A stretch of 64,000 nt of DNA from Candidatus Pacearchaeota archaeon (GTDB taxonomy: Archaea > Nanobdellota > Nanobdellia > Pacearchaeales > GW2011-AR1), in NCBI GenBank assembly GCA_050303855.1, contig JBNLCO010000010.1, forward strand, positions 124,093-188,092, given 5' to 3'. The notes under the pieces were generated by a model. That model saw only the letters and a list, made by a program, of their open reading frames with translations. It did not search any database and was not told the origin of the DNA. Of the stretch, positions 17,662 to 60,439 are shown one piece after another. Each line of letters starts with the position of its first letter. Position 1 is the stretch's first letter. Made by a program: the position numbers and the translations under genes.

Positions 17662-17662
17662 G

Positions 17663-27589: not shown

Positions 27590-28612
27590 ATGTCATTTTT
27601 TGAGGTTCTTATGGATTTAACAAATGAATATTTGAATAAAAAAGTATTGATTACAGGCGGTGGCGGCTTTATTGGAAGCAACCTTGCAATAAAATTAGTA
27701 GAATTAGGCGCAGAAGTTTCGGTAATGGATTCGAAATTAAAGCCTTATGGGTTTAATTTGTTTAATCTTGATCCAGTGTTGGATAAAATAAATATAGATT
27801 ATTCGGATATAAGGGATAGAAATGCTGTTGAAAGGAATATTGCTGGACAAGATATAATCTTTAATTTGGCTGCACAGGTAGGTGAAAAAGTAGGAGAGGA
27901 AAATCCTTTTTTAGACTGGGACATAAATGTTAGAGGGCACATGGAAGTATTAAATGCATGCAAAAACAAAAATAAAGAAGCAAGAATAATATTTCCAGGT
28001 TCAAGGTTACAATATGGTAAGACAAATGGGGCAGAGATAATTTCTGAAAGCCACCCCATGAACCCCTTAACTAATTATGCCAGAAACAAAGTCGTGGGGG
28101 AAGAAATGTACCAAAAACTTAACAAAGAGGGTTTAGAAACGGTAACATTTAGAATTGCTAATCCTTTCGGTCCTCGTGCATCAATTAATAATCCTGGTTA
28201 TTGTATTGTCAATTGGTTTATTGGTAGGGCCTTGGATGGAAAAGATTTACCCATTTATGGAGAAGGGTCTCAGGCAAGAGATTATATTTTTATAGAAGAT
28301 TTAACAGATGCTATGGCAATCGCAGGAGTCCATAAAAATTCTCCAGGAAACACTTACAATTTAGGGTCAGGCCAGAAGACTTTATTCAAAGATATGGCTG
28401 AGAAAATAGTTGCACTTTCAGAAAATAATTATTCAAAAATAAATTTTGTTGAATGGCCAAAAGATGCAAAAGAAAGAGAGACTGGAAATTTTGTCGCAGA
28501 TATCTCAAAGATAGAAAGAGAATTGGGTTGGAAGCCTAAGTATAGTTTAGAAGAGGGTCTGAAAAGAACAATTGAATTTTATAGAGAAAATAAGAACAAT
28601 TATATTGGATAA
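27590..28612 (+). CDS. NAD-dependent nucleotide-sugar epimerase/dehydratase (extended SDR)
   Basis: Contains VLITGGGGFIGSNL...; a YxxxK region. The start could instead be the Met at 27611. Confidence 0.8.
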   Translation: MSFFEVLMDLTNEYLNKKVLITGGGGFIGSNLAIKLVELGAEVSVMDSKLKPYGFNLFNLDPVLDKINIDYSDIRDRNAVERNIAGQDIIFNLAAQVGEKVGEENPFLDWDINVRGHMEVLNACKNKNKEARIIFPGSRLQYGKTNGAEIISESHPMNPLTNYARNKVVGEEMYQKLNKEGLETVTFRIANPFGPRASINNPGYCIVNWFIGRALDGKDLPIYGEGSQARDYIFIEDLTDAMAIAGVHKNSPGNTYNLGSGQKTLFKDMAEKIVALSENNYSKINFVEWPKDAKERETGNFVADISKIERELGWKPKYSLEEGLKRTIEFYRENKNNYIG

Positions 28613-28694: not shown

Positions 28695-29279
28695 ATGGAA
28701 GATCAAGAAAGTAAAGTTTATTTTTCGATTGGGGAGAGTATAAATGCAAAAAAATCTTTTTATAGTCGCCCAAAAGATCTTGTTGATATTTCAAACAAAA
28801 TTTATGAGTCTTTAAATAAAGGTCAAAAAATACTTGTTTTTGGGAATGGAGGTAGTGCGGCAGATGCACAACACATTGCAGGAGAGTTAGTTGGAAGGTT
28901 TAAGAAAGAACGTAAAGCTTTAGCAGCAATGGCTTTAACCACAGATACATCCGTAATAACATCATTATCTAATGATTATGATTATTCAAAGGTATTCGAG
29001 AGGCAAATTGAAGCATTTGCTAGGGAAGGAGATATTTTATGGGGAATTTCAACCTCAGGAAACTCGGAAAACGTTATTAAAGGTCTTGAAAAAGGAAGAG
29101 AAATAGGCACTTATAATTTTTCTATGACTGGTAAAGATGGAGGCATAGTAAAGAAATTAAGTGATTTTAATATAAATATTGATTCTAAAAACACTCCAAG
29201 AATTCAGGAAGCACATCAATTGGCGTACCATATTATTTGCGAATTGGTTGAAGATAAAATATATCATAATAATCTTTAA
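28695..29279 (+). CDS. gmhA: SIS-domain sedoheptulose-7-phosphate isomerase (GmhA-like)
   Basis: 194 aa, ...LVFGNGGSAADAQHIAGELVGRF...LTTDTSVITSLSNDYDYSKVFERQIEA...GDILWGISTSGNSENV...; GGAGGT lies 8 nt upstream of the ATG. Confidence 0.85.
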   Translation: MEDQESKVYFSIGESINAKKSFYSRPKDLVDISNKIYESLNKGQKILVFGNGGSAADAQHIAGELVGRFKKERKALAAMALTTDTSVITSLSNDYDYSKVFERQIEAFAREGDILWGISTSGNSENVIKGLEKGREIGTYNFSMTGKDGGIVKKLSDFNINIDSKNTPRIQEAHQLAYHIICELVEDKIYHNNL

Positions 29280-29305: not shown

Positions 29306-30286
29306 ATGGTAAGAAATCTTATAACAGGCACTACAGGGATGGTGGGTTCTCATTTGGCAGAATTTCTTTTGGACAAAGGGGAAGAAGTTTATGGAACACG
29401 TCGTTGGCGAAGTAGGATGGATAATTGTAGAGGATTTGAGGACAAAATAAATTGGGTGAATATGGAATTAATTGACGCCCATTCTGTTAGAAATGCTATT
29501 GAAAGTGTAAGACCTGATGTGATCTATCATCTTGCTGCACAAAGCTATGTTGTTGATTCAAAAGATGAGCCTGTAGCCACAATGGAAATTAACGCCCATG
29601 GAACTGCTCATATTCTTGAAACCGTGAAGGAAATGAAGAAAAGAGATGGGTACAACCCTGTTATTCATGTTTGTAGTAGTAGTGAAGTTTATGGGCAGGT
29701 GAATCCGGACGAAGTTCCAATAAAAGAAACAAACCAATATCGACCGGCCTCTCCTTATGCGATAGGAAAGCTAGGAGCAGATATGCTTGCTAGGTGGTAT
29801 TTTGAAGAATATGATCTGAAGACGATACGTACAAGAATGTTTACTCATACAGGGCCAAGAAGAGGGGATGTTTTTGTAGTTTCAGCTTTTGCCAAACAAA
29901 TTGCAAAAATTGAGAAAGGATTACAAAAACCAAAATTAAAAGTAGGTAATCTAGAATCTGTTAGGACTTTTGCAGATGTTAGAGATACTGTGCATGCATA
30001 CTATCTCTTAACTAAGCATTGTAAGCCTGGAGAAGTCTATAACATAGGAGGAAATAGAACAATGAAGATTGGAGAGATGTTGGATATCCTTTTAAGCTAC
30101 TCTCCAATGAAAGATAAAATAGAAGTTGAAGTGGATCCGAATCTTCTAAGAAAAACTGATGTAACATATCAAATACCCGACACATCTAAGTTCAAAAAAG
30201 AAACCGGATGGGATAGCCCAATTCCTCTTGAGAAGACTTTAGAAGACACCCTAGACTATTGGAGAGGGGAATTTAAGAATGAGTAA
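29306..30286 (+). CDS. GDP-sugar 4,6-dehydratase family enzyme (Gmd/Rmd/DmhA-like)
   Basis: Contains ITGTTGMVGSHLAEFLL...CSSSEVYG...PASPYAIGKLGAD...FTHTGPRRGDVFVVSAFAKQI (compare the Gmd motif NHESPRRG..FVTRKI). Confidence 0.75.
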   Translation: MVRNLITGTTGMVGSHLAEFLLDKGEEVYGTRRWRSRMDNCRGFEDKINWVNMELIDAHSVRNAIESVRPDVIYHLAAQSYVVDSKDEPVATMEINAHGTAHILETVKEMKKRDGYNPVIHVCSSSEVYGQVNPDEVPIKETNQYRPASPYAIGKLGADMLARWYFEEYDLKTIRTRMFTHTGPRRGDVFVVSAFAKQIAKIEKGLQKPKLKVGNLESVRTFADVRDTVHAYYLLTKHCKPGEVYNIGGNRTMKIGEMLDILLSYSPMKDKIEVEVDPNLLRKTDVTYQIPDTSKFKKETGWDSPIPLEKTLEDTLDYWRGEFKNE

Positions 30287-31349
30287 AGAAGTAAAAGTAA
30301 AATTAAATCATTTTTCTGGGGAATATGAAAATGATGAAGAGTATTATGAGAAATATTGGTCAATTAAAGTTTTGTTAGATAATTTTAATGTAAAAATTGT
30401 AGATAATGTGAAAGAGGCGGATGTTATATTTGAACAGTGTACAAGAGGAAGTAATTATAATTTTTTAAATGAAAAGAATAAAAAAATAGTGCTCTTTTCT
30501 TCAGAAGATCTATATAAAAAAAGAGATATTTTTAATTTAATAGAATCCTTTCTTTATAAGGTAGGATTGGGGGATAAAAAGTGGAAAATTATAGATAAAC
30601 TAGATAGTATTATTCCTTCAAGTATCTCAAGCATTCCATTGAAATATTTTCTACCAAAACATTTGAAGTTTGTGAGAAAAATTTCAGAAGGAAAAATAAA
30701 AAATGCATACGCAATTGTTCAAAATGATATAAAAGGGGAAAACATCTTGATAATTCCCTGTTTCTTGCATGTTTTTTATTATAATTTGAAAGATTTCACA
30801 AAAAAGAAAAAACAGGAATCAAGTAAAAGGAAGAAATTTTGTGCGTTTATTGTATCTAGCAATTCCTCTAGGGAAAGGGTTAAATTTTTTAAGAAATTGT
30901 CCAAATACAAGAAAATTGATTCTTATGGAAGGGTCATGAATAATATGGGAGATAGTATTTTTAATGGCCACTGGAGTGGAACCCACCCGGAGATATATAA
31001 AGACTATAAATTCGTGATTTGTTTTGAGAATAGTTTTACAAAAGAGTATATTTGTGAGAAATTGCCTAGGACTATGCTTTCTGGAGCAATACCTATATTC
31101 AGAGGTGCTCCAAACATTGGAGAATATTTCAATAAAAAATCTTTCATTAATTATGATAATTATGGAAGTTATGAAAATATGATAAAGAAAATTATTGAGT
31201 TGGATAGTGATGATAAAAGATATGAATCATTCCTAAGAGAACCTTGGTTCAAAGATAACAAGATTCCAAAGATATTTAGAGATAAAGAGAAAGAATTAAT
31301 TCAATTTTATACCAAGATTTTTGGACCTCCAAAGAGAAAATTAAAATGA
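30279..31349 (+). CDS. GT10-like (alpha-1,3-fucosyltransferase family) glycosyltransferase
   Basis: Contains ...KKFCAFIVSSNSSRERVKFFKKLSKYKKIDSYGRVMNN...YKDYKFVICFENSFTKEYICEKLPRTMLSGAIPIF...; this matches the GT10 YKF.L.FENS....Y.TEK motif. Confidence 0.7.
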   Translation: MSKEVKVKLNHFSGEYENDEEYYEKYWSIKVLLDNFNVKIVDNVKEADVIFEQCTRGSNYNFLNEKNKKIVLFSSEDLYKKRDIFNLIESFLYKVGLGDKKWKIIDKLDSIIPSSISSIPLKYFLPKHLKFVRKISEGKIKNAYAIVQNDIKGENILIIPCFLHVFYYNLKDFTKKKKQESSKRKKFCAFIVSSNSSRERVKFFKKLSKYKKIDSYGRVMNNMGDSIFNGHWSGTHPEIYKDYKFVICFENSFTKEYICEKLPRTMLSGAIPIFRGAPNIGEYFNKKSFINYDNYGSYENMIKKIIELDSDDKRYESFLREPWFKDNKIPKIFRDKEKELIQFYTKIFGPPKRKLK

Positions 31350-32002
31350 ACAATATTTTTTATGGAATACTTTCTGTAGGGTTTGACATCGATCAAACAA
31401 TGTACGCAAAAAATAGTGAAATAGACTTAATTATTCAAGATGAAATTGCGAGGAAGATTCTTGAAATAAAACCTTCTTTCAATAATCTTGAATCAGCAAA
31501 AGAATTTTCTGAAAGAAGATATTCTGAATTAGGGAGCCGAACAAGTGTGTTAGAAGAGGTTGGCTATAAAAATGCTCAAGAAATCTTGTACGGATGCATT
31601 TCAAGTGATAAAACAATAAACCCTCTCCAGAAAGACGAAAGGCTTCAGGAAATGATTTCAAGATTGGGACATAAATATGATCTTTTTTTAATAACTAATA
31701 ATTCGGAGGATATTGCGACTAAAAAATTAGATCGATTAGGTGTTGACAAGTCTTTATTTAACCTAAAATTTTATGGAGACACATTACCTGGAATAAAAAA
31801 ATCTGATGGTTCTTTGTTCAAATATTTCCTAAGTAGGTCCAAACATTCCCCTGAAAACCACATATATGTCGGAGATAGCCTTAATGCAGACATAATCCCT
31901 TCTAAAAAGCTAGGTTTCAAAACAATTTGTGTAGGAAATCACTTTCTTGAAGCGAATTATTCTGTTAAAGAAATTTATGATATAGAAAATCTTCTTCTAT
32001 AA
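31346..32002 (+). CDS. HAD-superfamily hydrolase/phosphatase
   Basis: N-terminal nucleophile motif GFDIDQT and C-terminal ...YVGDSLNADI... Confidence 0.7.
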   Translation: MNNIFYGILSVGFDIDQTMYAKNSEIDLIIQDEIARKILEIKPSFNNLESAKEFSERRYSELGSRTSVLEEVGYKNAQEILYGCISSDKTINPLQKDERLQEMISRLGHKYDLFLITNNSEDIATKKLDRLGVDKSLFNLKFYGDTLPGIKKSDGSLFKYFLSRSKHSPENHIYVGDSLNADIIPSKKLGFKTICVGNHFLEANYSVKEIYDIENLLL

Positions 32003-32061: not shown

Positions 32062-33849
32062 ATGAAGTTAGCAGATTATGTTATTGATTATTTTGGAGAT
32101 AAGGGAGTGAAGGATATATTTGAGGTCTATGGTGCTGCGAATGGTGATTTGATTGATGCTTTTACGAGAACAGATAAAACAAGATATGTTGCTATAATGC
32201 ACGAACAAGCTGCAGGGTTTGCTACAGAATGTTATTCTAAGATCAGCGGTAAGCCAGGTGTTGCGATAGCCACAAGTGGCCCTGGAGGCCAGAATTTTGT
32301 GACTCCAATTGCAAATTGTTATTATGATTCTGTTCCGGCAATTTTTATAACAGGTCAGGTAAACTCCAGATTTTTAAGGCCTGATGAAAGTATAAGACAG
32401 AGAGGATTCCAAGAAACCCCTATTGCAGAAATTGTTGCTCCCATAACAAAATATTCTAAAATGATTACAGACCCAAGCACAATAAAACATGAACTTGAAA
32501 AAGCATGGTATATTTCCCAAGAAGGAAGACCAGGCCCAATTCTTCTTGATCTTCCGATAGATATTCAAAAAGCGGAAGTAGATCCGTCAAAACTATTTGG
32601 GTTTAATTCAGAAACTTATAAAACCAATTTTAATATGGAACAGGTTAATAACCAGATAGACCACTATCTTGAAGACTTGTCCCGTGCTGAAAGACCAGTT
32701 ATTCTTGTTGGAGGAGGAGTAAGACCTTCAGGAGGAATAGAAAAACTTCTGAGTTTGGGAGAGAAATTAAAAATTCCGATGTTCCCCACATGGAATTCAT
32801 TAGATATTGTTACTTCTGATTACAATTACTATGGAGGAAGGGTTGGAACTTATGGCGGAAAAGGAAGAAACTTTGGTTTGCAGAACTCCGATTTAGTTTT
32901 GGCTTTGGGAAGCAGAATTTCTGGAAGACTTTATGGAAGCCAGACAAAGGCTTTCTTAAGAGATGCAAAGAAATATGTAGTAGATATTGATAAAGCTAAC
33001 TTACAACAAATATTCCAAGAAGTTCCCTTTGACGAGAACATTTTTTGTGACGCGAAAACTTTTATAGAAAGTTTAGATAAAAAGTTGGAAGGTGTTCCTA
33101 AGAAAGATTTCTCTTCATGGACAAGTAAAGTTATGGGTTGGAGAAACAAGTATGACCCTGTAAAGAAAGAATTTTTTGAGGCTAATGAGAATGCAAACCC
33201 CTATGCTTTTTTTAGAACACTTTCTCAAGAAATGAAATCTGGAGATATCCTTGTGGGAGACTGTGGGGGAAATATTGTTGTTGCTAGTCACGCTTTTGAA
33301 ACAAAGAAAGGGCAAAGATTCATTACAAATAATGGAAACTCCCCTATGGGATTTTCATTTTCAGGAGCCATGGGGGCCTACCTTGCTGCAAATGAAGGCC
33401 AAAATGTAGTTTGCACGATTGGAGATGGAGGTTTCAATATGAATATCCAAGAACTACAAACTTTAAAGAATTATGATCTAAATTTCAAGACATTCATAAT
33501 TAACAATGGAATTTATGGTATCACTAAAGCATTCCAAGAAAAGAAGTTTGAGGGTAGGGCTGAAGCATGTGGTCCAAAAGGCTATGTTCCTCCTAATTTT
33601 ATGGCCATATGTGATGCTTACGGAATTAAAACCGAATCTATAAAAGGAAATGATATTGATAGCATGAGAGAGAAAATTGGAGATGTTTTGAATTCAAAAG
33701 GTCCTGTTGTGTGTGATGTAAGTTGTCCAGACTGGCATACTTACGAACCAACAGTTTTTGGATCAGTCCCAATCGAAGAAATGCACCCTCAGTTGCCTGA
33801 AGAAGAATTCAGAGAAAATATGATTATAAAACCTTGGAAAAAGAAATAA
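32062..33849 (+). CDS. thiamine-diphosphate-dependent enzyme, acetolactate-synthase-large-subunit-like (YerE-like candidate)
   Basis: 595 aa, ...HEQAAGFATECYSKISGKPGVAIATSGPGGQNFVTPIANCYYDSVPAIFITGQV...IGDGGFNMNIQELQTL... (ThDP-binding GDG..N motif). Confidence 0.8.
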   Translation: MKLADYVIDYFGDKGVKDIFEVYGAANGDLIDAFTRTDKTRYVAIMHEQAAGFATECYSKISGKPGVAIATSGPGGQNFVTPIANCYYDSVPAIFITGQVNSRFLRPDESIRQRGFQETPIAEIVAPITKYSKMITDPSTIKHELEKAWYISQEGRPGPILLDLPIDIQKAEVDPSKLFGFNSETYKTNFNMEQVNNQIDHYLEDLSRAERPVILVGGGVRPSGGIEKLLSLGEKLKIPMFPTWNSLDIVTSDYNYYGGRVGTYGGKGRNFGLQNSDLVLALGSRISGRLYGSQTKAFLRDAKKYVVDIDKANLQQIFQEVPFDENIFCDAKTFIESLDKKLEGVPKKDFSSWTSKVMGWRNKYDPVKKEFFEANENANPYAFFRTLSQEMKSGDILVGDCGGNIVVASHAFETKKGQRFITNNGNSPMGFSFSGAMGAYLAANEGQNVVCTIGDGGFNMNIQELQTLKNYDLNFKTFIINNGIYGITKAFQEKKFEGRAEACGPKGYVPPNFMAICDAYGIKTESIKGNDIDSMREKIGDVLNSKGPVVCDVSCPDWHTYEPTVFGSVPIEEMHPQLPEEEFRENMIIKPWKKK

Positions 33850-34438: not shown

Positions 34439-35128
34439 TTAAATAGATTTATGTCTTTGTTTAGAATGTTTTCTTCCATCTAAAATGAGTTCAGATTTTT
34501 TTTCTTTGTATGCAGCAAATATTTCTTCTGAAACATATTTTGGATCCATGGAGTTTTCTCTACCAGGTCGAGTTCTTATTCTAGTTGGATAAACTCCCAT
34601 CACATGTATTCCGTTTTCAATTGCTTCCAAATTTAAGCTATCTGTGAAACCCTTAAGCCCGTATTTGCATGCTGAAGCCACGCTACGAAACTTTTTGCTT
34701 TCAAGGCCCATTATTGAGTTAATATTTATGATTGTTCCAGAGTTCTTCTTTAAAAAAAGAGGATAAATTTCCTTAGATAATTTTATTGGAGCATATAGAT
34801 TTGTTTCGAGTAATTCGTCTACTGTTTCTCTGGATATTTTATCTAAGGGTAAACCAGGACAAAAAACCCCTGCATTATTTACTAAAATTGACAAGTCTTT
34901 TTTCTCTGCAATGTTTGCCAAGTCCTTAATAGTCTTCTCGGATCTTAAATCTCCATAAACCACTTCCACCTTTGACCCGTATTTTAGTATTTCTCTCTGA
35001 GAATCATTTAAGCTAGTTTTATCCCTTCCATGGATTATTAAATTGTAACCTTCTCTTGCAAAAGTTAAAGCTAATTCCTTTCCAAGACCTTTGCTAGAAC
35101 CAGTTATCAGAACAGATTCTTTTTTCAT
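34439..35128 (-). CDS. short-chain dehydrogenase/reductase (classical SDR)
   Basis: Contains VLITGSSKGLGKELAL...NNAG... Confidence 0.8.
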   Translation of the reverse strand: MKKESVLITGSSKGLGKELALTFAREGYNLIIHGRDKTSLNDSQREILKYGSKVEVVYGDLRSEKTIKDLANIAEKKDLSILVNNAGVFCPGLPLDKISRETVDELLETNLYAPIKLSKEIYPLFLKKNSGTIININSIMGLESKKFRSVASACKYGLKGFTDSLNLEAIENGIHVMGVYPTRIRTRPGRENSMDPKYVSEEIFAAYKEKKSELILDGRKHSKQRHKSI

Positions 35129-35132: not shown

Positions 35133-36044
35133 TTAATTCGAAGAATTTTTTGAATACCAATCCAAAGTTTTTACAATACCTTCTTCAAGCGGGACTTTTT
35201 GAGACCACCCAATTTCATTTGCTTTGGTACAATCTAAGGATAGATTCATCTTAATCGTAGGTTTTGTTGTATCATGCTCAATTTTCAAATTCTTTCCGGA
35301 GGCATTAATGATCTTCTTTGTTAAGTCATTAACTGGTACTTGCTCTCCAGATCCAACATTATAAACCCCATCAAGTTCTTTTTCAAGAGCAATTTCCACA
35401 AAATCTACAAAATCAGAAACATACAAGAAATCTCTTTTTTCTTTTCCATCTCCCCAAATTACAATGCTTTCTCCGTCTGGAGTATTAGTAACTTCATTAA
35501 TTTTTGCTGCAAAAACATGAGAAGTAGCCAAATCAAAATTATCGTTAGGTCCGTAAATATTGGAGTGTCTCATCACAGTATGTTTTGTTCTTCCCAATCC
35601 AGAATAAAAATTGCACATATTTTCAAGATAAATCTTTGTACCTCCTCCACCTGAATATTTTACATTTGGAGAAGTGGGATCTGTTTCCTTATGGGGTTTA
35701 TCGCTTGAAGGGTAAACATTTGTACAGCTTGGAAATATAAACTGTTTAACATTATTTTCAAAAGCACTTCTTAACAAAAGAGAATTCATTACTGCATTAT
35801 CGGTTACATGAATATAAGGCCTCTCTATTATATCTTTAACCCCTGTACTCGTAGCAGCCATTTGAATTATAACGTCTTGACCTTTTACTACCCTTTCAAC
35901 GTCTTCTTTTCTAGTTAAATCGGCATATACATCTGATTTATTTCTAAATCCAACTCCTGTAACATCATATTTATCTTTTAGTCTTTCATATATGTTACTT
36001 CCTAAGAATCCTGTTGCTCCAGTTATTAACACTTTCTTTTTCAT
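35133..36044 (-). CDS. NAD-dependent nucleotide-sugar epimerase/reductase (extended SDR)
   Basis: Contains KVLITGATGFLGSNIYERL... Confidence 0.78.
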   Translation of the reverse strand: MKKKVLITGATGFLGSNIYERLKDKYDVTGVGFRNKSDVYADLTRKEDVERVVKGQDVIIQMAATSTGVKDIIERPYIHVTDNAVMNSLLLRSAFENNVKQFIFPSCTNVYPSSDKPHKETDPTSPNVKYSGGGGTKIYLENMCNFYSGLGRTKHTVMRHSNIYGPNDNFDLATSHVFAAKINEVTNTPDGESIVIWGDGKEKRDFLYVSDFVDFVEIALEKELDGVYNVGSGEQVPVNDLTKKIINASGKNLKIEHDTTKPTIKMNLSLDCTKANEIGWSQKVPLEEGIVKTLDWYSKNSSN

Positions 36045-36081: not shown

Positions 36082-37062
36082 TCATTCAAAGATATTATAT
36101 CTTTTATTTACAATATCTTTATTTTCTTTATACCAATCCATTGTTCTCCGAACTCCCTCTTCTAGAGATACTTTTGGATTCCATCCAAGAGACTTTGCTC
36201 TTGATACATCCATTAACCTTATTTTATCTCCTCTTGGCATAGAAGGATCCCATTTTATGGAGGGTTTTCCTTCAATGTTATTTACAATTATATTTGCTAA
36301 TTCTTTTATGCTCTTTCTTTCCCCTGATCCAAGATTTAAAGGGTAGTCTGGGCCTGGAGCCTTTTCTAAAGCCACAAGCATTCCTTCAGCAACATCCTCT
36401 GAATAAATGAAATCTCTTATTGGACTTCCATCTCCTCCTACTTTAAGGGGATTTTCTCCATCAACAGCCCTTTTTATCAATGAAGGTATTACCATTGCGT
36501 TATTCACATCAAAGTTATCAAAAGGCCCGTAGACATTTGCAGGTCTTACTATTGCTGTTTTATCCCACCCATGTTGAATTTTATATGCCCTTGCTTGTAA
36601 TTCACCAGATCTCTTTGCATAACCCCCAAACAAATCATTCTCGGAAGGAAGCGTTTTGAAAACGTCATCCTCTCTCAAAATTTCGGCAGGTTGATAAACA
36701 CCTATTGTGCTTGTAAACAAGAATCTTTCTGTCCCCTCTTTTCTAGCAGCTTCCATCAAATTTGTATTAAATTGGAGAACAGGAACAAGAAAATTAGCTG
36801 GTTTTTCCAAGGTCATTTTTGGAGAACCTTTTATTCCAAGAAGATTAAAAACATAATCCTGTCCTTCGCAAGCAATTTCACAGTTGTGATAATTGGTTAG
36901 ATCAAGTTTCAAATATTCTGAATTGGGATTTGCCCTTGAAGGATCATCCATTGAAACAACTCTTACATTTGCACCTTCCTCAAGAAGTCTATTTACTAGA
37001 GGCTTTCCAATAAGTCCGGTTCCCCCTGCGACAAGAACGTTTTTTCCCTCATAAAAACCCAT
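36082..37062 (-). CDS. NAD-dependent nucleotide-sugar epimerase/dehydratase (extended SDR)
   Basis: Contains NVLVAGGTGLIGKPLVNRLL...GGYAKRSGE...; first gene of the minus-strand sub-operon 37062 to 33850. Confidence 0.78.
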   Translation of the reverse strand: MGFYEGKNVLVAGGTGLIGKPLVNRLLEEGANVRVVSMDDPSRANPNSEYLKLDLTNYHNCEIACEGQDYVFNLLGIKGSPKMTLEKPANFLVPVLQFNTNLMEAARKEGTERFLFTSTIGVYQPAEILREDDVFKTLPSENDLFGGYAKRSGELQARAYKIQHGWDKTAIVRPANVYGPFDNFDVNNAMVIPSLIKRAVDGENPLKVGGDGSPIRDFIYSEDVAEGMLVALEKAPGPDYPLNLGSGERKSIKELANIIVNNIEGKPSIKWDPSMPRGDKIRLMDVSRAKSLGWNPKVSLEEGVRRTMDWYKENKDIVNKRYNIFE

Positions 37063-37083
37063 AAAGAGATGTATTTCCTTTTC

Positions 37084-37090
37084 TTTTTAA
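37084..37090 (-). promoter_or_regulatory. TATA-like box (TTAAAAA on the minus strand) about 25 nt upstream of the ATG at 37062
   Basis: Divergent partner of the plus-strand box at 37144-37152. Confidence 0.4.
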
Positions 37091-37143
37091 GGATTTGTTT
37101 TATTGATAGTATATTTACAAAACATACAGAAAAGAACAATTAA

Positions 37144-37152
37144 TTTTATAAA
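37144..37152 (+). promoter_or_regulatory. TATA-like box (TTTTATAAA) about 26 nt upstream of the ATG at 37174
   Basis: Same geometry as the other promoters in the window. Confidence 0.5.
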
Positions 37153-37173
37153 CAATTATAGCCCAGGTTCAGG

Positions 37174-38304
37174 ATGGGAATTTCTTTTGGAGATTTGAGA
37201 GTCAGTAAGGAGTCTAGAAAACATCTTGAAGACTGTCTCAATAATAATATGATTTCTGGAGGAGATAAAGTGAAAATCTTGGAGGATTCTTGGGGAAAAC
37301 TTTTTGGATATAAATATAATGTTGCTATGGGTTCTGGAACAGATGCAGATATGGCTGCTGCAATGACTCTTTATGATACAGTGGAAGCCAAACCAGGTGA
37401 TGAGGTTATCGTTCCTGCTCTTGCATTTGCAGCCGTAGGGAATAGTGTAAGAGCTGCAGGTTTTACACCTAAATTTGTTGACATAGAAAGAGAAACATTA
37501 AACATCAACCCTGATTTGATTGAAGAAAAAATAACTCCAAAAACAAAGGCCATAATGGCAGTCCATACAATGGGAAAACCAAATGAGATGGACAAAATAA
37601 CTCAAATTGCAAACAAGTATAACCTAAGGGTTTTAGAAGATTGTTGTGAATCTCATGGGGGAGAATATAAGGGGAAGTTTTTAGGTAGCTTTGGGGATGC
37701 ATCTGCATTTAGTTTTTATGTTGCACACATTGTTTCTTGTGGTGATGGAGGCATGCTTTCAACAAACTCTGAAGAGATAAGCGATTTAGCCGATTCAGTA
37801 AAACACCACGGAAGAAAACCTAGAACAATTTATTTTGATCATCCAAGATTTGGTATGAATTTTAGGATGAATGCCTTGACAGCTTCCATAGGCATCCCCG
37901 AAATACAAAATTTTTGGAAGATTTTTGATAAAAGAAAAGGCAATTTGAATTATTTACTGGATTCAACAAAAGACCTTCAGGATTTTGCTTATTTTGTTAA
38001 GGAGGAACCTCATGAGGTTGTCTCTCCTCACGCTTTTAGTATAACTCTTAAAAATCCGGATCACGATTTCAAAGGATTGTATGCATTCTTAGAAAAAAAT
38101 GATATAGAATGTAAAAGAAACTTCGGGAGTATGCCAACACAGCATAAAGCTTTTGAATATCTTGGATACAAGAAAGGTGAATTTCCTGAAGCAGAGTATG
38201 TTGGAGATAATGGGTTGCATTTTGGAATCCATCAATTCTTAGAAAAGAGTGATTTAGATTATGCTTCAGAAAAAATCCACGAATATTTTAAAAAATTTAA
38301 ATAA
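37174..38304 (+). CDS. DegT/DnrJ/EryC1-family PLP/PMP enzyme with His in place of the Schiff-base Lys (ColD-like sugar 3-dehydratase candidate)
   Basis: 376 aa. The motif region is ...DASAFSFYVAHIVSCGDGGM... In aminotransferases of this family the aligned position (SF...K....GEGG) is Lys; here it is His185 (codon CAC at 37726-37728). Confidence 0.7.
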   Translation: MGISFGDLRVSKESRKHLEDCLNNNMISGGDKVKILEDSWGKLFGYKYNVAMGSGTDADMAAAMTLYDTVEAKPGDEVIVPALAFAAVGNSVRAAGFTPKFVDIERETLNINPDLIEEKITPKTKAIMAVHTMGKPNEMDKITQIANKYNLRVLEDCCESHGGEYKGKFLGSFGDASAFSFYVAHIVSCGDGGMLSTNSEEISDLADSVKHHGRKPRTIYFDHPRFGMNFRMNALTASIGIPEIQNFWKIFDKRKGNLNYLLDSTKDLQDFAYFVKEEPHEVVSPHAFSITLKNPDHDFKGLYAFLEKNDIECKRNFGSMPTQHKAFEYLGYKKGEFPEAEYVGDNGLHFGIHQFLEKSDLDYASEKIHEYFKKFK

Positions 38305-38310: not shown

Positions 38311-39168
38311 TTATTTTTTAGAATCTAAAGATTGAATATAGTTCTTTATTTCATTCAAATTGTCTTCGGATATTTTGTAGAAAAGGTTTTCTTCGGGAAA
38401 ACTTCCAGATCTTATTTCGTTTACATAACTAGACAAACCTTTCTTCATTTCACTTCCAACATCTGAGAATTGTTTTACAAACTTAGCTTTTATTCCGCCT
38501 AAACCAACCACATCGTTAACTATTGCCAAGATACCGTCTACGTTTTTTCCAGCCCCGATTCCGTAAACAGGAATGTTCAAAGATTTTGCGATATATCCTG
38601 CAGGTTCATTTGGAACAGCTTCCAAAAGTATTGCGCAAGCTCCCGCGTCCTGTAATGCTTTTGAATCATTATAGAGGGTTTTGAATCCGTCTAAACTTTT
38701 TGATTGTACAACCCCCATTAGATCTGTTGATTGGGGTGTATATCCTATATGCCCTATTGTCGCTATCCCAGCATCTTTCAAGGCCTTTACTCTTTGAGTT
38801 ACTCTTTCTCCCCCTTCAAGCTTAACTGCATCAACACCTGCTTCTTTCATAAATCTTAATGCATTGAAAGTTGCATTTTCATTAGAAATTTGGTAAGAAC
38901 CTAAAGGCATATCCCCCACAATAAAAGTATTTGGAGCTCCTCTACGGACTGCTTTTGTTAACATGATCATCTCATCCATTGTTACTGGAATAGTATTTTC
39001 ATAACCTAGAAGATTATTTCCTGCAGAATCTCCAACAAGGATCATATCCACTCCAGACTCTTCAGCTATTCTTGCTGTTTGAAAATCATAAGAAGTTATC
39101 CATGTGACTTTTTCCCCTTTTTTTTTCATCTTTACAAGATCTCCGAGGGTTTTTCTCTTTCCTTCCAT
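38311..39168 (-). CDS. panB: 3-methyl-2-oxobutanoate hydroxymethyltransferase (PanB family)
   Basis: Contains ...KVTWITSYDFQTARIAEESGVDMILVGDSAGNNLLGYENTIPVTMDEMIMLTKAVRRGAPNTFIVGDMPLGSYQ... Confidence 0.8.
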   Translation of the reverse strand: MEGKRKTLGDLVKMKKKGEKVTWITSYDFQTARIAEESGVDMILVGDSAGNNLLGYENTIPVTMDEMIMLTKAVRRGAPNTFIVGDMPLGSYQISNENATFNALRFMKEAGVDAVKLEGGERVTQRVKALKDAGIATIGHIGYTPQSTDLMGVVQSKSLDGFKTLYNDSKALQDAGACAILLEAVPNEPAGYIAKSLNIPVYGIGAGKNVDGILAIVNDVVGLGGIKAKFVKQFSDVGSEMKKGLSSYVNEIRSGSFPEENLFYKISEDNLNEIKNYIQSLDSKK

Positions 39169-39394: not shown

Positions 39395-41440
39395 ATGAAA
39401 GCATTGATACTTGCAGGAGGATTTGGTACCCGACTTCAAGGGGTTGTTAAAGATGTTCCAAAACCAATGGCCTCTATTGCGGGAAAACCTTTTTTGGAGC
39501 ATCAGATACGTTATTTGAAAAGACAAGGAATTAACGAATTTATCTTGGGAGTTCATTATAAATCAGATGTCATAAAATCTTATTTTGGCAACGGTATGAG
39601 GCAAGATGTAAGCATAACTTATTCTGAAGAGGATTCTCCTCTTGGAACAGGGGGAGCAATAAAACTCGCGCAGAAATTCATTGACGGGCCATTTTTAGTT
39701 TTGAATGGGGACTCGTATACTGATTTGGATCTGGGCAAATTTATGAGATTCCATGAAAAAAATAATTCTGTTGCAAGCATGGTCTTGCAAAAAATGGAAA
39801 AGGATAATTCCCACTATGGAAATGTTGAATTAGAAGGGGATACAATAAAGAGATATTCCGAAAAAAAATCAGTTGGCAAAGGACTGTCCAATTCAGGAAT
39901 CTATTTATTTGATCAAGAGATATTTGACTACATTCCTGGATCTAAAAAGATTTCTTTGGAAGAAAGAGTGTTTCCTGAACTGGTAAAGAAGGGTGCTATT
40001 TCTGGATTTGTCAACAAAGGTTATTTTGTCGATATCGGAAGACCCGAGACCTATCTTCAATTTAAAAAAGATTTTATTGAGAAATTGCAATCTTCAAAAG
40101 ACATTATTTTAAGAGATGCTATAAAAAAGATGTATGAAAATGGTTCAGACATATTGTTTATGGTTAATGAAGAGAAAGAATTTCAAGGTTTGCTAACAGA
40201 TGGAATTATTAAAAGATACCTAATAAGAGGGGGAGAATTTGAAGCAGGAGTTGATGAAGCCATGATAGAAAAACCAGAAAGGATTGCTACAATAAAAGAC
40301 AGTGAGGATAAAATAAGAGGTTTCTTAAAAGAAGGGGTCAAGAATCTTCCAATACTGGACGAACAAGGAAAAATATACGATATTCGATTTAGAACCGAAG
40401 AGGTAAAAGGAGAAGAATATCCAACCATTAGAGGTAAAACTCCTTTGAGAATAAGTTTTGCAGGAGGCGGTACAGATATGCCCTATTTTTTTGAGAAATA
40501 CGGAGGGGCTGTAATAAGCACAACTATTGATAAGTATTGCAACATTACTGCAAAAAAAAGAGGGGATTCCAAAATCGTAATTAATTCGGATATTTTAGAG
40601 GAGGAAGTGATTTTGGATGCCGGGAATTTAAAATATGATAGAAGTAAATTTGATCTAGTAAAATCAGTATATAATCTTGTAAACCCGGGGTGTGGTGTTG
40701 ATCTCCATTTGAATAATGACGTACCTCCAGGAAGAGGTCTTGGTTCATCTGCATCATTTGCAGTTCTTTTAACTAAAATTTTGGGCAAGCTAAAAGGGAG
40801 TAATTTGAGTGATGAGGAAGTTGCAGAATTTGCTTATAGAGCAGAAGTTGAAGAATTGGGAATAAGAGGAGGCAAGCAAGATCAATACGCTGCAGTATTT
40901 GGAGGATTTAATTGGATGGAATTTGAAAATGGAAATAGAAAAATAATGACATCCCTTAGAATAAAAGAAGATACTTTGAATGAATTGAAAGATCATTTAA
41001 CTTTATGCTACACTGGCAAAGAACATGAATCAATCCATCAACAGAAGTTATTGGAAGACAAATTTAAAAAAGAGAACCAGAGTGCAATTGAAAGGCTAAA
41101 AAGAATGAAACTTAATGCACGAGAAATAAAGAATTATCTTCTATCTCCGACCCCCGATTTTCAAAGGATAGGCGAGATAACCCATAAAATCTGGACAGAT
41201 AAAAAGAAGACTTCTTCGAAAGTAACCAGCAAAGTTATTGAAAACCTTTATGAAGTGGGAATGACTAATGGATCATATGGAGGTAAGCTTTTAGGTTCTG
41301 GTGGGGGAGGCTACTTGTTATTTTTCCATCCTCCAGAAAAAAGGAACAAATTAGAGAGAGGATTATCTCAGGAAGGTGGAGAAATCATGAACTTCAATTT
41401 TACTGAAGATGGTGCCAAGATATGGGTTCCGAACAAATAA
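39395..41440 (+). CDS. tri-domain fusion: sugar-1-phosphate nucleotidyltransferase (HddC/ManC-like) + CBS pair + GHMP sugar kinase (HddA-like)
   Basis: N-terminus MKALILAGGFGTRLQ...KPM. The middle has a CBS-like segment (...LLTDGIIKRYL...NLPILDEQGKIYDIRF). The C-terminal half has RGKTPLRISFAGGGTDMPYFFEKYGGAVISTTIDKY...PPGRGLGSSASFAV (GHMP motif). Confidence 0.8.
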   Translation: MKALILAGGFGTRLQGVVKDVPKPMASIAGKPFLEHQIRYLKRQGINEFILGVHYKSDVIKSYFGNGMRQDVSITYSEEDSPLGTGGAIKLAQKFIDGPFLVLNGDSYTDLDLGKFMRFHEKNNSVASMVLQKMEKDNSHYGNVELEGDTIKRYSEKKSVGKGLSNSGIYLFDQEIFDYIPGSKKISLEERVFPELVKKGAISGFVNKGYFVDIGRPETYLQFKKDFIEKLQSSKDIILRDAIKKMYENGSDILFMVNEEKEFQGLLTDGIIKRYLIRGGEFEAGVDEAMIEKPERIATIKDSEDKIRGFLKEGVKNLPILDEQGKIYDIRFRTEEVKGEEYPTIRGKTPLRISFAGGGTDMPYFFEKYGGAVISTTIDKYCNITAKKRGDSKIVINSDILEEEVILDAGNLKYDRSKFDLVKSVYNLVNPGCGVDLHLNNDVPPGRGLGSSASFAVLLTKILGKLKGSNLSDEEVAEFAYRAEVEELGIRGGKQDQYAAVFGGFNWMEFENGNRKIMTSLRIKEDTLNELKDHLTLCYTGKEHESIHQQKLLEDKFKKENQSAIERLKRMKLNAREIKNYLLSPTPDFQRIGEITHKIWTDKKKTSSKVTSKVIENLYEVGMTNGSYGGKLLGSGGGGYLLFFHPPEKRNKLERGLSQEGGEIMNFNFTEDGAKIWVPNK

Positions 41441-41441
41441 A

Positions 41442-51443: not shown

Positions 51444-51531
51444 TGCGCGGACCGGGGATCGAACCCGGATCAACTGGTCTCTTCAGACAACCTGTGGAAG
51501 CCAGTTATTCTAACCATTAAACTATCCACGC
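51444..51531 (-). tRNA. tRNA-Gly(UCC) with a 16-nt intron at the canonical 37/38 position
   Basis: Manual fold. Acceptor GCGTGGA/TCCGCGC plus discriminator A73; D arm GTTT-AATGGTTA-GAAT; anticodon stem ACTGG/CCAGT; loop CTTCCA|intron CAGGTTGTCTGAAGAG|A; T arm CCGGG-TTCGATC-CCCGG. No encoded CCA. Confidence 0.85.
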
Positions 51532-59092: not shown

Positions 59093-59118
59093 AATTATAA
59101 ATTTAATTTGGATAATTT

Positions 59119-60397: not shown

Positions 60398-60439
60398 CTT
60401 ATTTAATTTTTGTTAATAAATGTTATTTTTAATAAAAAA

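What the first reader, a model, noticed from the sequence alone, without database searches (positions are those of the whole stretch)
37174..38304. A DegT-family enzyme with His replacing the catalytic Lys: a ColD-type 3-dehydratase signature
In DegT/DnrJ/EryC1 aminotransferases the internal-aldimine Lys lies in the motif SF...K....GEGG. Here the aligned motif is SFYVAHIVSCGDGG, with His185 (CAC at 37726-37728). GDP-4-keto-6-deoxy-D-mannose 3-dehydratase (ColD, colitose pathway) is the classic family member in which His (His188) replaces this Lys. ColD acts on exactly the product of a Gmd-type dehydratase, which is encoded 7 kb upstream. This predicts a GDP-3,6-dideoxy sugar, either colitose-like or a 3,6-dideoxyheptose as in some Campylobacter capsules.
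Basis: partly seen in the sequence, partly recalled or inferred. Interest (0 to 1): 0.6.

Follow-up and report, generated by a model that had tools for sequence, protein, structure and literature searches.

The report
His-type sugar 3-dehydratase, archaeal glycan cluster
This gene, which public databases label an aminotransferase, carries the catalytic-site histidine typical of sugar 3-deoxygenating enzymes and most likely makes a 3,6-dideoxy-heptose building block for the surface glycan of a tiny uncultured archaeon, as part of a large enzyme lineage nobody has characterised.

Summary
ORF 37174-38304 (+) encodes a 376-aa DegT/DnrJ/EryC1 protein. His185 (CAC 37726-37728) aligns with ColD His188, E1 His220 and the Schiff-base Lys of true aminotransferases. 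No Lys lies between residues 168 and 210.

The His is not a neutral change. It is kept in 118 of 119 close homologues and in all 80 species-level loci. In a tree built without that column, all 87 His-bearing sequences form one clade with ColD and E1 (bootstrap 38-77).

The protein is not a ColD orthologue. It is about 28% identical to ColD and sits in a separate, uncharacterised all-His lineage (100% bootstrap). That lineage lacks the ColD/E1 loop and any Fe-S cysteine motif.

The window encodes GmhA, an HddC-HddA fusion and a Gmd-like 4,6-dehydratase, so the likely substrate is GDP-6-deoxy-4-keto-heptose rather than the mannose derivative. Two Fcl-like reductases, a GT10 transferase and AglB are also in the cluster.

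Across phyla the family sits beside ThDP enzymes of the two known sugar-branching classes. This suggests the 3-deoxy-4-keto product is then C-branched.

This is a new variant of a known enzyme kind. Nothing has been tested biochemically.

The parts
37174..38304 (+). His-type DegT-family enzyme (376 aa), a predicted PMP-dependent, Fe-S-independent NDP-4-keto-sugar 3-dehydratase
   Evidence: Pfam PF01041 at 275.8 bits. The best PDB sequence hit is E1 dehydrase 3bcx. It sits in the all-His clade. AF2 model pLDDT is 94.1.
37726..37728 (+). CAC codon for His185, at the position of the Schiff-base Lys of aminotransferases
   Evidence: It is His in 118 of 119 homologues, 80 of 80 loci and 87 of 87 members of the clade.
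29306..30286 (+). Gmd-like NDP-sugar 4,6-dehydratase, which would supply the 4-keto-6-deoxy substrate
   Evidence: PF16363 at 255.6 bits. The top NCBIfam model is gmd, below its cut-off. SSSEVYG and YAIGK motifs are present.
28695..29279 (+). GmhA, sedoheptulose-7-phosphate isomerase
   Evidence: NCBIfam TIGR00441 at 201.3 bits against a cut-off of 209.45; SIS_2 domain.
39395..41440 (+). HddC-HddA fusion: heptose-1-P guanylyltransferase domain plus heptose-7-P kinase domain
   Evidence: The top NCBIfam models are HddA (245.8 bits) and HddC (197.3 bits), both below cut-off. Pfam gives NTP_transferase plus GHMP kinase. Homologues lie within 10 kb in 85% of 80 loci.
31346..32002 (+). HAD phosphatase, a candidate for the GmhB step (inferred)
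   Evidence: HAD_2 domain with only weak NCBIfam hits. Other loci carry a PNK3P-type GmhB instead.
32062..33849 (+). ThDP enzyme of the ALS/YerE-like decarboxylase class, a candidate C-branching enzyme acting on the 3-deoxy-4-keto product
   Evidence: TPP_enzyme_N/M/C domains. The best PDB hit is 8rph, which is JanthE, a YerE-like enzyme, at 310.9 bits; the best ALS entry scores 272.8.
34439..35128 (-). Short-chain dehydrogenase, a possible YerF-like side-chain reductase (inferred)
   Evidence: adh_short at 131 bits; no specific NCBIfam model.
35133..36044 (-). Fcl-like SDR (GDP-L-fucose synthase-like), a candidate C5-epimerase/C4-reductase
   Evidence: The top NCBIfam model is GDPFucSynFcl at 148.2 bits, below cut-off.
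36082..37062 (-). Second Fcl-like SDR, divergently transcribed from the His-DegT gene; ColC-like role inferred
   Evidence: The top NCBIfam model is GDPFucSynFcl at 147 bits. Homologues ('fcl2') recur in the conserved operon.
30279..31349 (+). GT10 (fucosyltransferase-family) glycosyltransferase, overlapping the end of the 4,6-dehydratase gene
   Evidence: PF00852 at 88.9 bits. It is also present in L001, L003, L007 and L009.
27590..28612 (+). SDR epimerase/oxidoreductase ('sdr340') that lacks the 4,6-dehydratase Glu motif
   Evidence: Homologues are part of the conserved operon in bacteria.
21674..24415 (+). AglB/STT3 oligosaccharyltransferase at the head of the glycan cluster
   Evidence: STT3 and STT3-PglB_core domains.
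38311..39168 (-). PanB-like ketopantoate hydroxymethyltransferase, wedged between the His-DegT gene and HddC-HddA
   Evidence: PF02548 at 307 bits. In the syntenic L001 it lies elsewhere in the same cluster, and the His-DegT gene is followed directly by HddC-HddA.

Best explanation
The gene encodes a pyridoxamine-phosphate-dependent nucleotide-sugar 3-dehydratase that works like ColD. PMP forms a ketimine with the C4 keto group of an NDP-4-keto-6-deoxy sugar. His185, sitting where aminotransferases have the Schiff-base Lys, abstracts the C4' proton, and the 3-OH is expelled. The enamine is hydrolysed to the 3,6-dideoxy-4-keto sugar plus ammonia. PMP is then regenerated by transamination with an amino acid (glutamate in ColD), because the protein has no Fe-S cluster motif and no E3-type reductase is seen nearby.

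In this window the substrate is most likely GDP-6-deoxy-4-keto-D-lyxo-heptose. It would be made from sedoheptulose-7-P by GmhA, the HddA domain, a HAD phosphatase, the HddC domain and the Gmd-like 4,6-dehydratase. The product, GDP-3,6-dideoxy-4-keto-heptose, is then either epimerised and reduced by the adjacent Fcl-like enzymes and transferred by GT10, or C-branched at C4 by the YerE-like ThDP enzyme and reduced. The finished sugar would enter an AglB-dependent N-glycan of a DPANN-type archaeon.

Shown: the His at the catalytic position, its conservation, the clade membership, the lack of an Fe-S motif and the gene context. Inferred: the activity, the substrate, the amino donor and the downstream steps.
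For: His185 aligns with ColD H188, E1 H220 and the aminotransferase Lys. There is no other Lys in the loop. The His is conserved in 118 of 119 homologues at 61-79% identity, in 80 of 80 species-level loci at 43-76% identity, and in every full-length representative scoring above about 200 bits.

In an NJ tree with the catalytic column masked, all 87 His sequences form one clade with ColD and E1. The clade appears in all five masking and trimming variants, with bootstrap 38-77. His-group residues outside the site are shared by the query: G351 (Pro in 82% of the Lys group), C158, A184, M133 and H349.

No Fe-S motif is present. The loop after HGR is short, and only one Cys column (C158) is highly conserved (98%) in the query's clade; C21 reaches 59%. 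No E3-like gene appears among annotated neighbours in six contexts.

The context includes GmhA, HddC-HddA, a 4,6-dehydratase with the SSSEVYG motif, two Fcl-like SDRs and GT10. HddA/HddC homologues lie within 10 kb in 85% of loci.

ThDP enzymes lie within 10 kb in 61% of loci, and in 22 loci the gap is 100 bp or less. They come in three architectures, matching the two ThDP classes known to branch deoxy-keto sugars (PMC9306805, PMC12247030). A dehydratase keeps the C4 keto group that such enzymes need, whereas an aminotransferase would remove it.

There is a precedent for the same reaction on GDP-heptose in C. jejuni HS:5 and HS:11 (PMC10440746).
Against: No biochemical data exist for any member of this lineage. 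Identity to ColD and E1 is only about 28%, no better than to true aminotransferases, and the fold search cannot separate the two classes. Support for monophyly of the His clade is moderate (38-77%) and comes from NJ, not maximum likelihood.

The query clade lacks the ColD/E1 loop (10 residues against 26 and 34). From my own recollection of the ColD structures, that loop helps form the neighbouring subunit's active site, so substrate binding may differ. The residue before the His is Ala, not ColD's Ser187.

Only 27 of 80 loci show an SDR with a classical 4,6-dehydratase motif within 10 kb, so across the family the substrate need not be a 6-deoxy sugar. All pathway-gene NCBIfam scores are below the curated cut-offs. 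The HAD in the window is not a typical GmhB.
Confidence: 0.62

Rival explanations
1. It is a true colitose-pathway enzyme. It dehydrates GDP-4-keto-6-deoxy-D-mannose, and the adjacent Fcl-like enzyme acts as ColC to give GDP-L-colitose, which GT10 transfers.
For: The 4,6-dehydratase's best NCBIfam model is gmd. Fcl-like SDRs are adjacent. GT10 enzymes use GDP-L-fucose-like donors. GDP-perosamine synthase and ColD are among the close structural matches.
Against: The only nucleotidyltransferase found in the cluster is fused to an HddA-like heptose kinase, and GmhA lies next to the 4,6-dehydratase. The HddA/HddC association holds in 85% of loci. No phosphomannomutase or mannose-1-P guanylyltransferase gene was seen among the cluster genes or the other window ORFs scanned. 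The protein is not in the ColD subclade.
Confidence: 0.12
2. It is a His-type enzyme with different chemistry. It could be a PMP-dependent 4-aminotransferase, like SpnQ without its reductase. Or it could deoxygenate at another position or act on a sugar that is not 6-deoxy. In the core bacterial operon, a non-dehydratase SDR would then supply the keto sugar.
For: SpnQ shows aminotransferase activity with PLP and glutamate when no reductase is present (review PMC8987622, read). Only 27 of 80 loci have a classical 4,6-dehydratase motif nearby. The recurrent operon carries 'sdr340', which lacks the dehydratase Glu. The query clade lacks the ColD/E1 loop.
Against: The window itself has a bona fide 4,6-dehydratase. 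All characterised His-type members named in the review read here (E1, ColD, SpnQ) catalyse 3-deoxygenation (PMC8987622), and so do the C. jejuni enzymes (PMC10440746). The tight linkage to ThDP branching enzymes calls for a retained keto group (PMC9306805). Many loci are truncated, so missing dehydratases are partly a sampling effect.
Confidence: 0.14
3. It is an E1/SpnQ-type 3-dehydrase that needs an external reductase, with radical reduction of the glucoseen-type intermediate instead of hydrolysis.
For: The best single PDB sequence hit is E1 (164.4 bits). The 'AH' dipeptide and the 'EDCC' motif match E1 rather than ColD. The top NCBIfam model is RfbH, far below its cut-off.
Against: The 31-residue E1 segment (residues 250-280) has no counterpart here; by my recollection of the E1 literature it carries three of the four cluster cysteines. 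Only C158 is highly conserved in the clade (C21 reaches 59%), and ColD has a Cys there too. Other His-type lineages do carry a CxCxxC...C loop, which shows the motif is detectable when present. No ferredoxin-reductase-like gene was seen nearby.
Confidence: 0.04
4. It is an ordinary sugar aminotransferase, or an inactive relic, in which the His is a neutral or degenerative substitution.
For: All public annotations call it a DegT-family aminotransferase or a dTDP-4-amino-4,6-dideoxygalactose transaminase. The overall fold and the short loop after HGR are aminotransferase-like.
Against: The His is conserved over hundreds of sequences and many phyla. The gene is well conserved overall, with 63% mean column identity and many invariant residues. 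It lies in the all-His clade with ColD and E1. The Schiff-base Lys is a conserved catalytic residue of PLP aminotransferases (PMC8987622).
Confidence: 0.03

Closest known systems
ColD (GDP-4-keto-6-deoxy-D-mannose 3-dehydratase; E. coli O55 WbdK, PDB 2gms), and the C. jejuni HS:5/HS:11 GDP-heptose C3-dehydratases, which are 62-67% identical to ColD (PMC10440746)
   Same: Both have the DegT fold and a His at the Schiff-base Lys position. The PLP-binding residues align: Asp156, Glu159 and Ser180 here against ColD Asp159, Glu162 and Ser183. Neither has an Fe-S motif. Both have a Gmd-like 4,6-dehydratase and Fcl/ColC-like reductases nearby, and the substrate here is probably GDP-linked. The C. jejuni enzymes set the precedent for the same reaction on GDP-6-deoxy-4-keto-heptose.
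   Different: Identity is only about 28%. The protein lies outside the ColD+E1 subclade (97-99% bootstrap). It lacks ColD's roughly 16-residue extra loop after 'HG'. It has Ala184 where ColD has Ser187. It is found in archaea and candidate phyla and is linked to ThDP and B12-radical-SAM genes.
E1 (CDP-6-deoxy-L-threo-D-glycero-4-hexulose 3-dehydrase, DdhC/RfbH/AscC; PDB 3bcx) and SpnQ
   Same: E1 is the best PDB sequence hit. It shares the 'SFY-AH' and 'EDCC' motifs. Its 3,6-dideoxy-4-keto product is the acceptor of YerE-type ThDP branching enzymes in the yersiniose and erwiniose pathways.
   Different: This protein has no [2Fe-2S] cysteine loop and no E3 or ferredoxin reductase partner is seen. 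It is 376 aa against 437 aa. The context points to a GDP-heptose rather than a CDP-hexose.
Lys-type DegT sugar aminotransferases (7b0m, QdtB 3frk, GDP-perosamine synthase 3bn1)
   Same: Length, fold (TM about 0.9), the short loop after the HGR motif and the HPxxGxNxRM region are all similar. This is also how the gene is annotated in public records.
   Different: The catalytic Lys is replaced by His. Position 351 is Gly instead of the near-universal Pro of the Lys group, position 184 is Ala instead of Asn, and position 133 is Met instead of Tyr. The protein falls in the His clade.
The yersiniose/erwiniose 'acyl-branched sugar' pathway logic (3-dehydratase, then YerE-like or alpha-KADH2 ThDP enzyme, then reductase; PMC9306805, PMC12247030)
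   Same: A His-type 3-dehydratase gene sits beside a YerE-like ThDP enzyme (window, L001, L040, L059, L077, L079, L085) or an E1 alpha/beta-type ThDP pair (37 loci), together with SDR reductases.
   Different: The known examples are CDP- or dTDP-hexose pathways of Proteobacteria, mycobacteria and actinomycete antibiotics that use E1-type or other deoxygenation. Here the context points to a GDP-heptose pathway with a new His-DegT lineage, plus B12-radical-SAM enzymes, in archaea and uncultured bacterial phyla.

Membership tests
DegT/DnrJ/EryC1/StrS (PLP/PMP fold type I sugar-modifying enzymes) | A match to Pfam PF01041 above the gathering score, and the DegT fold | tested here: met
   275.8 bits against a cut-off of 19.8. 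The AF2 model has pLDDT 94 and TM 0.85-0.91 to many DegT structures.
His-type nucleotide-sugar 3-dehydratases (ColD, E1, SpnQ) | His in place of the Schiff-base Lys, conserved among orthologues | tested here: met
   His185 aligns with ColD H188 and E1 H220. It is conserved in 118/119, 80/80 and 87/87 sequences.
His-type nucleotide-sugar 3-dehydratases (ColD, E1, SpnQ) | Common descent with the characterised members rather than independent origin within aminotransferases | tested here: met
   The all-His clade including ColD and E1 is recovered in all five NJ analyses with the catalytic region masked, at moderate bootstrap (38-77). G351 is a shared non-catalytic marker. A maximum-likelihood analysis was not possible.
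His-type nucleotide-sugar 3-dehydratases (ColD, E1, SpnQ) | Catalyses C3 deoxygenation of an NDP-4-keto sugar | not testable with these tools
   This needs an enzyme assay. Only context supports it: the 4,6-dehydratase, the Fcl-like reductases and the ThDP enzymes.
ColD orthologues (GDP-4-keto-6-deoxy-D-mannose 3-dehydratase) | Placement in the ColD subclade or high identity (the C. jejuni orthologues are 62-67% identical to ColD) | tested here: not met
   Identity is about 28%. ColD and E1 group apart from the query in 97-99% of bootstraps.
ColD orthologues (GDP-4-keto-6-deoxy-D-mannose 3-dehydratase) | The Ser187-His188 dipeptide (both positions had to be changed to convert ColD into an aminotransferase; PDB 3gr9 title) | tested here: not met
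   The query has Ala184-His185, as in E1.
ColD orthologues (GDP-4-keto-6-deoxy-D-mannose 3-dehydratase) | No iron-sulfur cluster; cofactor recycled by transamination | tested here: met
   The absence of a Cys motif is shown. The amino donor cannot be tested here.
E1/SpnQ-type 3-dehydrases | A [2Fe-2S] cluster bound by four cysteines, three of them in the loop after the HGR motif, plus a reductase partner | tested here: not met
   The loop is 10 residues with no Cys; E1 has 34 residues there. Only C158 is highly conserved in the clade. No reductase partner is seen in the neighbourhoods.
Lys-type DegT aminotransferases | A Schiff-base Lys in the SF...K....G(E/D)GG motif | tested here: not met
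   The position holds His185, and there is no Lys between residues 168 and 210.
[quoted passage not shown] | All four activities encoded, each above its curated model cut-off | tested here: inconclusive
   GmhA scores 201.3 against 209.45, HddA 245.8 against 600, and HddC 197.3 against 300. These are the best-matching models, but all fall below their cut-offs. The HAD is not GmhB-type in the window, although it is in L004-L006.
YerE-like sugar-branching ThDP enzymes (window 32062-33849) | Closer to characterised YerE-like enzymes than to acetolactate synthases, and encoded beside genes for a 3-deoxy-4-keto sugar | tested here: inconclusive
   The best PDB hit is JanthE 8rph at 310.9 bits, against 272.8 for ALS. 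However, the top NCBIfam models are acetolactate synthase, below cut-off. The co-location is shown. Activity is untested.

The most novel reading that the evidence does not exclude
The gene represents a third major lineage of His-type DegT enzymes. It is short-looped, Fe-S-free and never characterised, and it is spread through DPANN archaea, Methanoperedens, CPR bacteria, Omnitrophota, Planctomycetota, Nitrospirota, Myxococcota and Acidobacteriota. It forms the core of a conserved cassette: NDP-sugar kinase and nucleotidyltransferase, His-DegT, ThDP carboligase, two SDRs and a B12-radical-SAM enzyme. That cassette would build an unknown class of C-branched, C-methylated 3-deoxy higher sugars from GDP-heptose. 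In this archaeon the sugar would go into an AglB-dependent N-glycan, possibly with a PanB-made hydroxy-keto acid as the branch donor.
Probability: 0.35. Interest if true: 0.7.

Novelty: new variant of a known kind. Interest (0 to 1): 0.5.

Why it matters
If correct, thousands of genes now annotated as 'DegT family aminotransferase' or 'dTDP-4-amino-4,6-dideoxygalactose transaminase' are deoxygenases. Glycan predictions made from those annotations would then call amino sugars where 3-deoxy sugars are made.

It would extend 3,6-dideoxy-heptose biosynthesis, so far demonstrated biochemically in the Campylobacter capsule pathways (PMC10440746), to archaea with minimal genomes.

The consistent pairing with both classes of sugar-branching ThDP enzymes offers new carboligases for making tertiary alcohols, which biocatalysis groups are actively seeking (PMC12247030). 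It also gives a concrete pathway hypothesis for acyl-branched higher sugars.

The short-loop architecture gives a natural test of which structural elements beyond the His are needed to turn an aminotransferase scaffold into a dehydratase.

Tried and rejected
**Structure comparison.** The AF2 model is confident (pLDDT 94.1), but Foldseek against the PDB gives TM 0.85-0.91 to E1, ColD and many aminotransferases alike. It cannot discriminate function.

**NCBIfam.** RfbH is the top model at 200.6 bits, but the cut-off is 423 and LegC and PseC score about 185. This gives no assignment.

**Source genome.** An exact look-up of the window's own protein found no gene record and no name. The organism is therefore inferred only from relatives: Nanoarchaeota, Woesearchaeota and Pacearchaeota MAGs.

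**Split transketolase.** I considered that the E1-type ThDP gene pair could be a split transketolase making sedoheptulose-7-P. I rejected this because Pfam gives E1_dh plus Transket_pyr/Transketolase_C and no Transketolase_N, and because ALS-type enzymes replace the pair in other loci.

**An Fe-S cluster built from other cysteines.** Rejected, because only C158 is highly conserved (98%; C21 reaches 59%), and ColD shares a Cys at that position.

**Tree methods.** No maximum-likelihood tree software was available. I used NJ with Kimura distances and 100 bootstraps.

**Reference sequences.** ColD, E1, QdtB and 7b0m had to be rebuilt from HMMER alignment printouts. Residues 250-280 of E1 were entered as X. 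SpnQ and the C. jejuni enzymes could not be included.

**Literature.** A search for archaeal 3-dehydratase or heptose work found nothing relevant.
Full report
**1. The observation**

ORF 37174-38304 (+) is real. It starts with ATG, encodes 376 aa, and homologues cover it from residue 1. Pfam DegT_DnrJ_EryC1 matches at 275.8 bits over residues 11-368.

The motif SFYVAHIVSCGDGG begins at residue 180. His185 is the codon CAC at 37726-37728, and there is no Lys between residues 168 and 210.

In HMMER alignments to solved structures, His185 pairs with three residues:
- the first His of E1 'SFYPAHHITMGEGG', which is Lys in the H220K mutant entry 3bb8;
- the His of ColD 'FSSFYSHHIATMEGG' (PDB titles name H188N and H188K/S187N mutants);
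- the Lys of the aminotransferase 7b0m 'FSFNGNKIITTGGGG'.

The PLP-anchoring residues also align: Asp156, Glu159 and Ser180 here against ColD Asp159, Glu162 and Ser183. Their roles in ColD are from my own knowledge of the structures.

**2. Is the His meaningful?**

The 120 best homologues (61-79% identity) come from DPANN archaea and candidate-phyla bacteria. All are annotated as aminotransferases. 118 of 119 aligned sequences have His at this position; the exception, P0113, has Asp.

A search of 1.84 billion cluster representatives gave 150 hits. Every full-length hit scoring above about 200 bits (36-51% identity) has His. Lys first appears at P0198, at about 199 bits.

I built a neighbour-joining tree of 126 sequences: the query, 7 family members, 114 representatives, and ColD, E1, QdtB and 7b0m rebuilt from the alignment printouts. 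With the catalytic column masked, all 87 His-bearing sequences form one clade with no Lys-bearing sequence inside (bootstrap 69).

The clade was recovered in all five variants of gap trimming and of masking, up to residues 150-200, with bootstrap 38-77. ColD and E1 group together apart from the query in 97-99% of replicates. The query falls in an all-His clade of at least 50 members without ColD or E1 in 100% of replicates.

Residues outside the catalytic site also separate the groups, and the query has the His-group state at each of these five:

| Position | His group | Lys group |
|---|---|---|
| 351 | Gly 80% | Pro 82% |
| 158 | Cys 91% | Cys 23% |
| 184 | Ala 79% | Asn 44% |
| 133 | Met 63% | Tyr 62% |
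| 349 | His 63% | His 0% |

ColD and E1 share Gly351. The His is therefore an ancient, selected feature shared by descent with the known 3-dehydratases, not a neutral substitution.

**3. How it differs from ColD and E1**

Identity to both is about 28%, no higher than to GDP-perosamine synthase or other aminotransferases. The confident AF2 model (pLDDT 94.1) superimposes equally well on both classes (TM 0.85-0.91), so the fold does not discriminate.

The segment after the conserved HGR motif is 10 residues in the query and its 54-member clade. The Lys group has a median of 9. ColD has 26 and E1 has 34.

In E1 this is the insertion at residues 250-280. By my recollection of the E1 literature it carries three of the four [2Fe-2S] cysteines. 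Several other His-type lineages in the sample show a CxCxxC...C loop there. The query clade has none, and only Cys158, which ColD also has, is highly conserved (98%; C21 reaches 59%).

None of the neighbourhoods examined contains an E3-like reductase. The residue before the His is Ala, as in E1, not Ser as in ColD.

The protein is therefore ColD-like in its predicted mechanism class (His, no Fe-S cluster). It belongs to a separate, short-looped lineage with no characterised or crystallised member: the best PDB hit scores 164 bits, against more than 200 bits within the clade.

**4. Context in the window**

The window is an archaeal chromosome segment. In order, it holds:
- a ribosomal-protein operon and SecY;
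- a 28-kb glycan cluster opening with a GT4-family (AglH-like) gene and AglB/STT3 (21674-24415) and ending with a flippase (47586-48980);
- SecDF, tRNAs and an RNA polymerase subunit.

Within the cluster the relevant genes are as follows:

| Coordinates | Strand | Gene | Key evidence |
|---|---|---|---|
| 28695-29279 | + | GmhA | 201.3 bits, just under the 209.45 cut-off |
| 29306-30286 | + | Gmd-like 4,6-dehydratase | SSSEVYG and YAIGK motifs |
| 30279-31349 | + | GT10 transferase | overlaps the dehydratase gene's end |
| 31346-32002 | + | HAD phosphatase | not a typical GmhB |
| 32062-33849 | + | ALS-like ThDP enzyme | see section 5 |
| 34439-35128 | - | short-chain reductase | adh_short |
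| 35133-36044 | - | Fcl-like SDR | best model GDP-L-fucose synthase |
| 36082-37062 | - | Fcl-like SDR | divergent from the His-DegT gene |
| 39395-41440 | + | HddC-HddA fusion | best NCBIfam models for each half |

[quoted passage not shown] Those enzymes are close ColD orthologues (62-67% identity); this one is not.

No separate mannose-1-P guanylyltransferase was found. I therefore favour the heptose over colitose.

**5. Context across 86 fetched loci (80 species-level)**

Five independent contexts of close homologues were examined: L001, L003, L004, L005 and L006, from Nanoarchaeota, Pacearchaeota, a Staskawiczbacteria CPR genome and metagenomes. All repeat the association with HddA/HddC, HAD or GmhB, SIS and GDP_Man_Dehyd-type SDRs.

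A scan of GTDB species representatives returned 80 loci at 43-76% identity. All are MAGs. They span DPANN archaea, Methanoperedens, Methanophagales, Omnitrophota, Planctomycetota, Nitrospirota, Myxococcota, Acidobacteriota, Chloroflexota and others. All 80 keep the His.

Within 10 kb of the gene:
- 85% of loci have HddA/HddC homologues.
- 61% have a ThDP enzyme (68% where both flanks are complete), and in 22 loci the gap is 100 bp or less.
- 56% have B12-binding radical SAM enzymes.

The ThDP partner comes in three architectures:
- ALS-like, in the window, L001 and five further loci;
- a single E1_dh-type protein of about 400 aa;
- an E1 alpha plus beta pair, in 37 loci.

Pfam assigns E1_dh and Transket_pyr/Transketolase_C to the pair, not Transketolase_N. 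That argues against a split transketolase.

A recurrent bacterial operon reads HddC, His-DegT, E1 alpha, E1 beta, Fcl2-like SDR, sdr340-like SDR, B12-rSAM, HddA (L045, L058, L060, L068, L073).

The window's ThDP enzyme has as its best PDB hit 8rph (310.9 bits, against 272.8 for the best ALS entry). 8rph is JanthE, a YerE-like enzyme.

Two ThDP classes, YerE-like decarboxylases and alpha-keto-acid-dehydrogenase-type E1 pairs, are the ones known to add acyl branches to deoxy-keto sugars. The acceptor in the yersiniose and erwiniose scheme is the 3,6-dideoxy-4-keto product of a 3-dehydratase (PMC9306805, PMC12247030).

Replacement of one ThDP class by the other beside the same His-DegT gene is good genomic evidence for a functional link. 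It also fits a dehydratase, which keeps the C4 keto group, better than an aminotransferase, which would remove it.

**6. Mechanism proposed**

PMP forms a ketimine at C4 of GDP-6-deoxy-4-keto-D-lyxo-heptose. His185 removes the C4' proton, and the 3-OH leaves. The enamine is hydrolysed to GDP-3,6-dideoxy-4-keto-heptose plus ammonia. PLP returns to PMP by transamination.

The product then either goes through the Fcl-like epimerase/reductases to a GT10 donor, or is C-branched by the ThDP enzyme and reduced.

Shown here: the residue, its conservation, the clade, the absence of an Fe-S motif, and the contexts. Inferred: the activity, the substrate, the amino donor and the downstream order.

**7. 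Weak points**

- No assay exists for any member of the lineage.
- Support for His-clade monophyly is moderate, and the tree is NJ, not maximum likelihood.
- The pathway models all score below their curated cut-offs.
- Only 27 of 80 loci show a classical 4,6-dehydratase motif within 10 kb, so other family members may act on sugars that are not 6-deoxy.
- The missing ColD/E1 loop may mean a different mode of substrate binding.

**8. Verdict**

The heptose option is preferred, and the protein is a distant relative of ColD, not an orthologue.

It is a new variant of a known kind: a widespread, misannotated, uncharacterised His-type lineage with a conserved link to sugar-branching ThDP enzymes. Interest is moderate (0.5). 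The chemistry is predictable from a textbook signature, but the lineage, its hosts and its cassette are new and directly testable.

Noticed in passing
window 38311-39168 (-); L001 18710-19570 (-): A PanB-like ketopantoate hydroxymethyltransferase (Pfam 307 bits) sits inside the glycan cluster. In the window it lies between the His-DegT gene and HddC-HddA, which are adjacent in the syntenic L001. PanB makes a hydroxylated 2-oxo acid, and YerE-like enzymes such as ErwE use hydroxy-2-oxo acids as branch donors (PMC9306805). It may therefore supply the donor rather than serve CoA synthesis.
   Followed up: partly
L045, L058, L060, L068, L073 (bacterial MAGs); also L028, L033, L037, L044: There is a recurrent operon: HddC, His-DegT, E1 alpha, E1 beta, Fcl2-like SDR, sdr340-like SDR, B12-radical-SAM, HddA. 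It occurs in Omnitrophota, Planctomycetia, Deltaproteobacteria and others. B12-binding radical SAM genes lie within 10 kb in 56% of the 80 loci, which suggests C-methylation of the same sugar.
   Followed up: partly
proteins P0140, P0158, P0192, P0194, P0214, P0255, P0217, P0229: Other His-type DegT lineages carry a Cys-rich loop after HGR (for example RACACKTCVLLTSNSNCP), which resembles an Fe-S site. Still others have long acidic loops with no Cys (for example SIYLSIDDDDSS...). The His superclade is far more diverse than ColD, E1 and SpnQ.
   Followed up: no
window 41409-42314 (+); L001 13270-14130; L003 18166-19110: A protein of about 300 aa with no Pfam or NCBIfam match is conserved immediately downstream of the HddC-HddA fusion in three archaeal contexts.
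   Followed up: no
window 51444-51531 (-): ARAGORN reports a tRNA of undetermined identity with a two-base 'anticodon' (tc). It may be an intron-containing or otherwise atypical archaeal tRNA, and it lies next to tRNA-Arg and tRNA-Leu.
   Followed up: no
window 58526-63479 (-): Five consecutive minus-strand ORFs of 187-395 aa have no Pfam match at E <= 1e-4.
   Followed up: no
window 37063-37173: The 111-bp AT-rich divergent intergenic region between the Fcl-like gene and the His-DegT gene contains TTTTATAAA about 25-30 nt before the ATG. This is compatible with an archaeal TATA box and a very short leader. No promoter test was run.
   Followed up: no
protein P0113: One of the 119 close homologues has Asp instead of His at the catalytic position (FRFYAGDLICSAEGG). 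It could be a sequencing error or an inactive copy.
   Followed up: no
window 17654-18376 (+): An EMC3/TMCO1-like membrane protein (a YidC/Oxa1-superfamily insertase homologue) is encoded directly after SecY.
   Followed up: no
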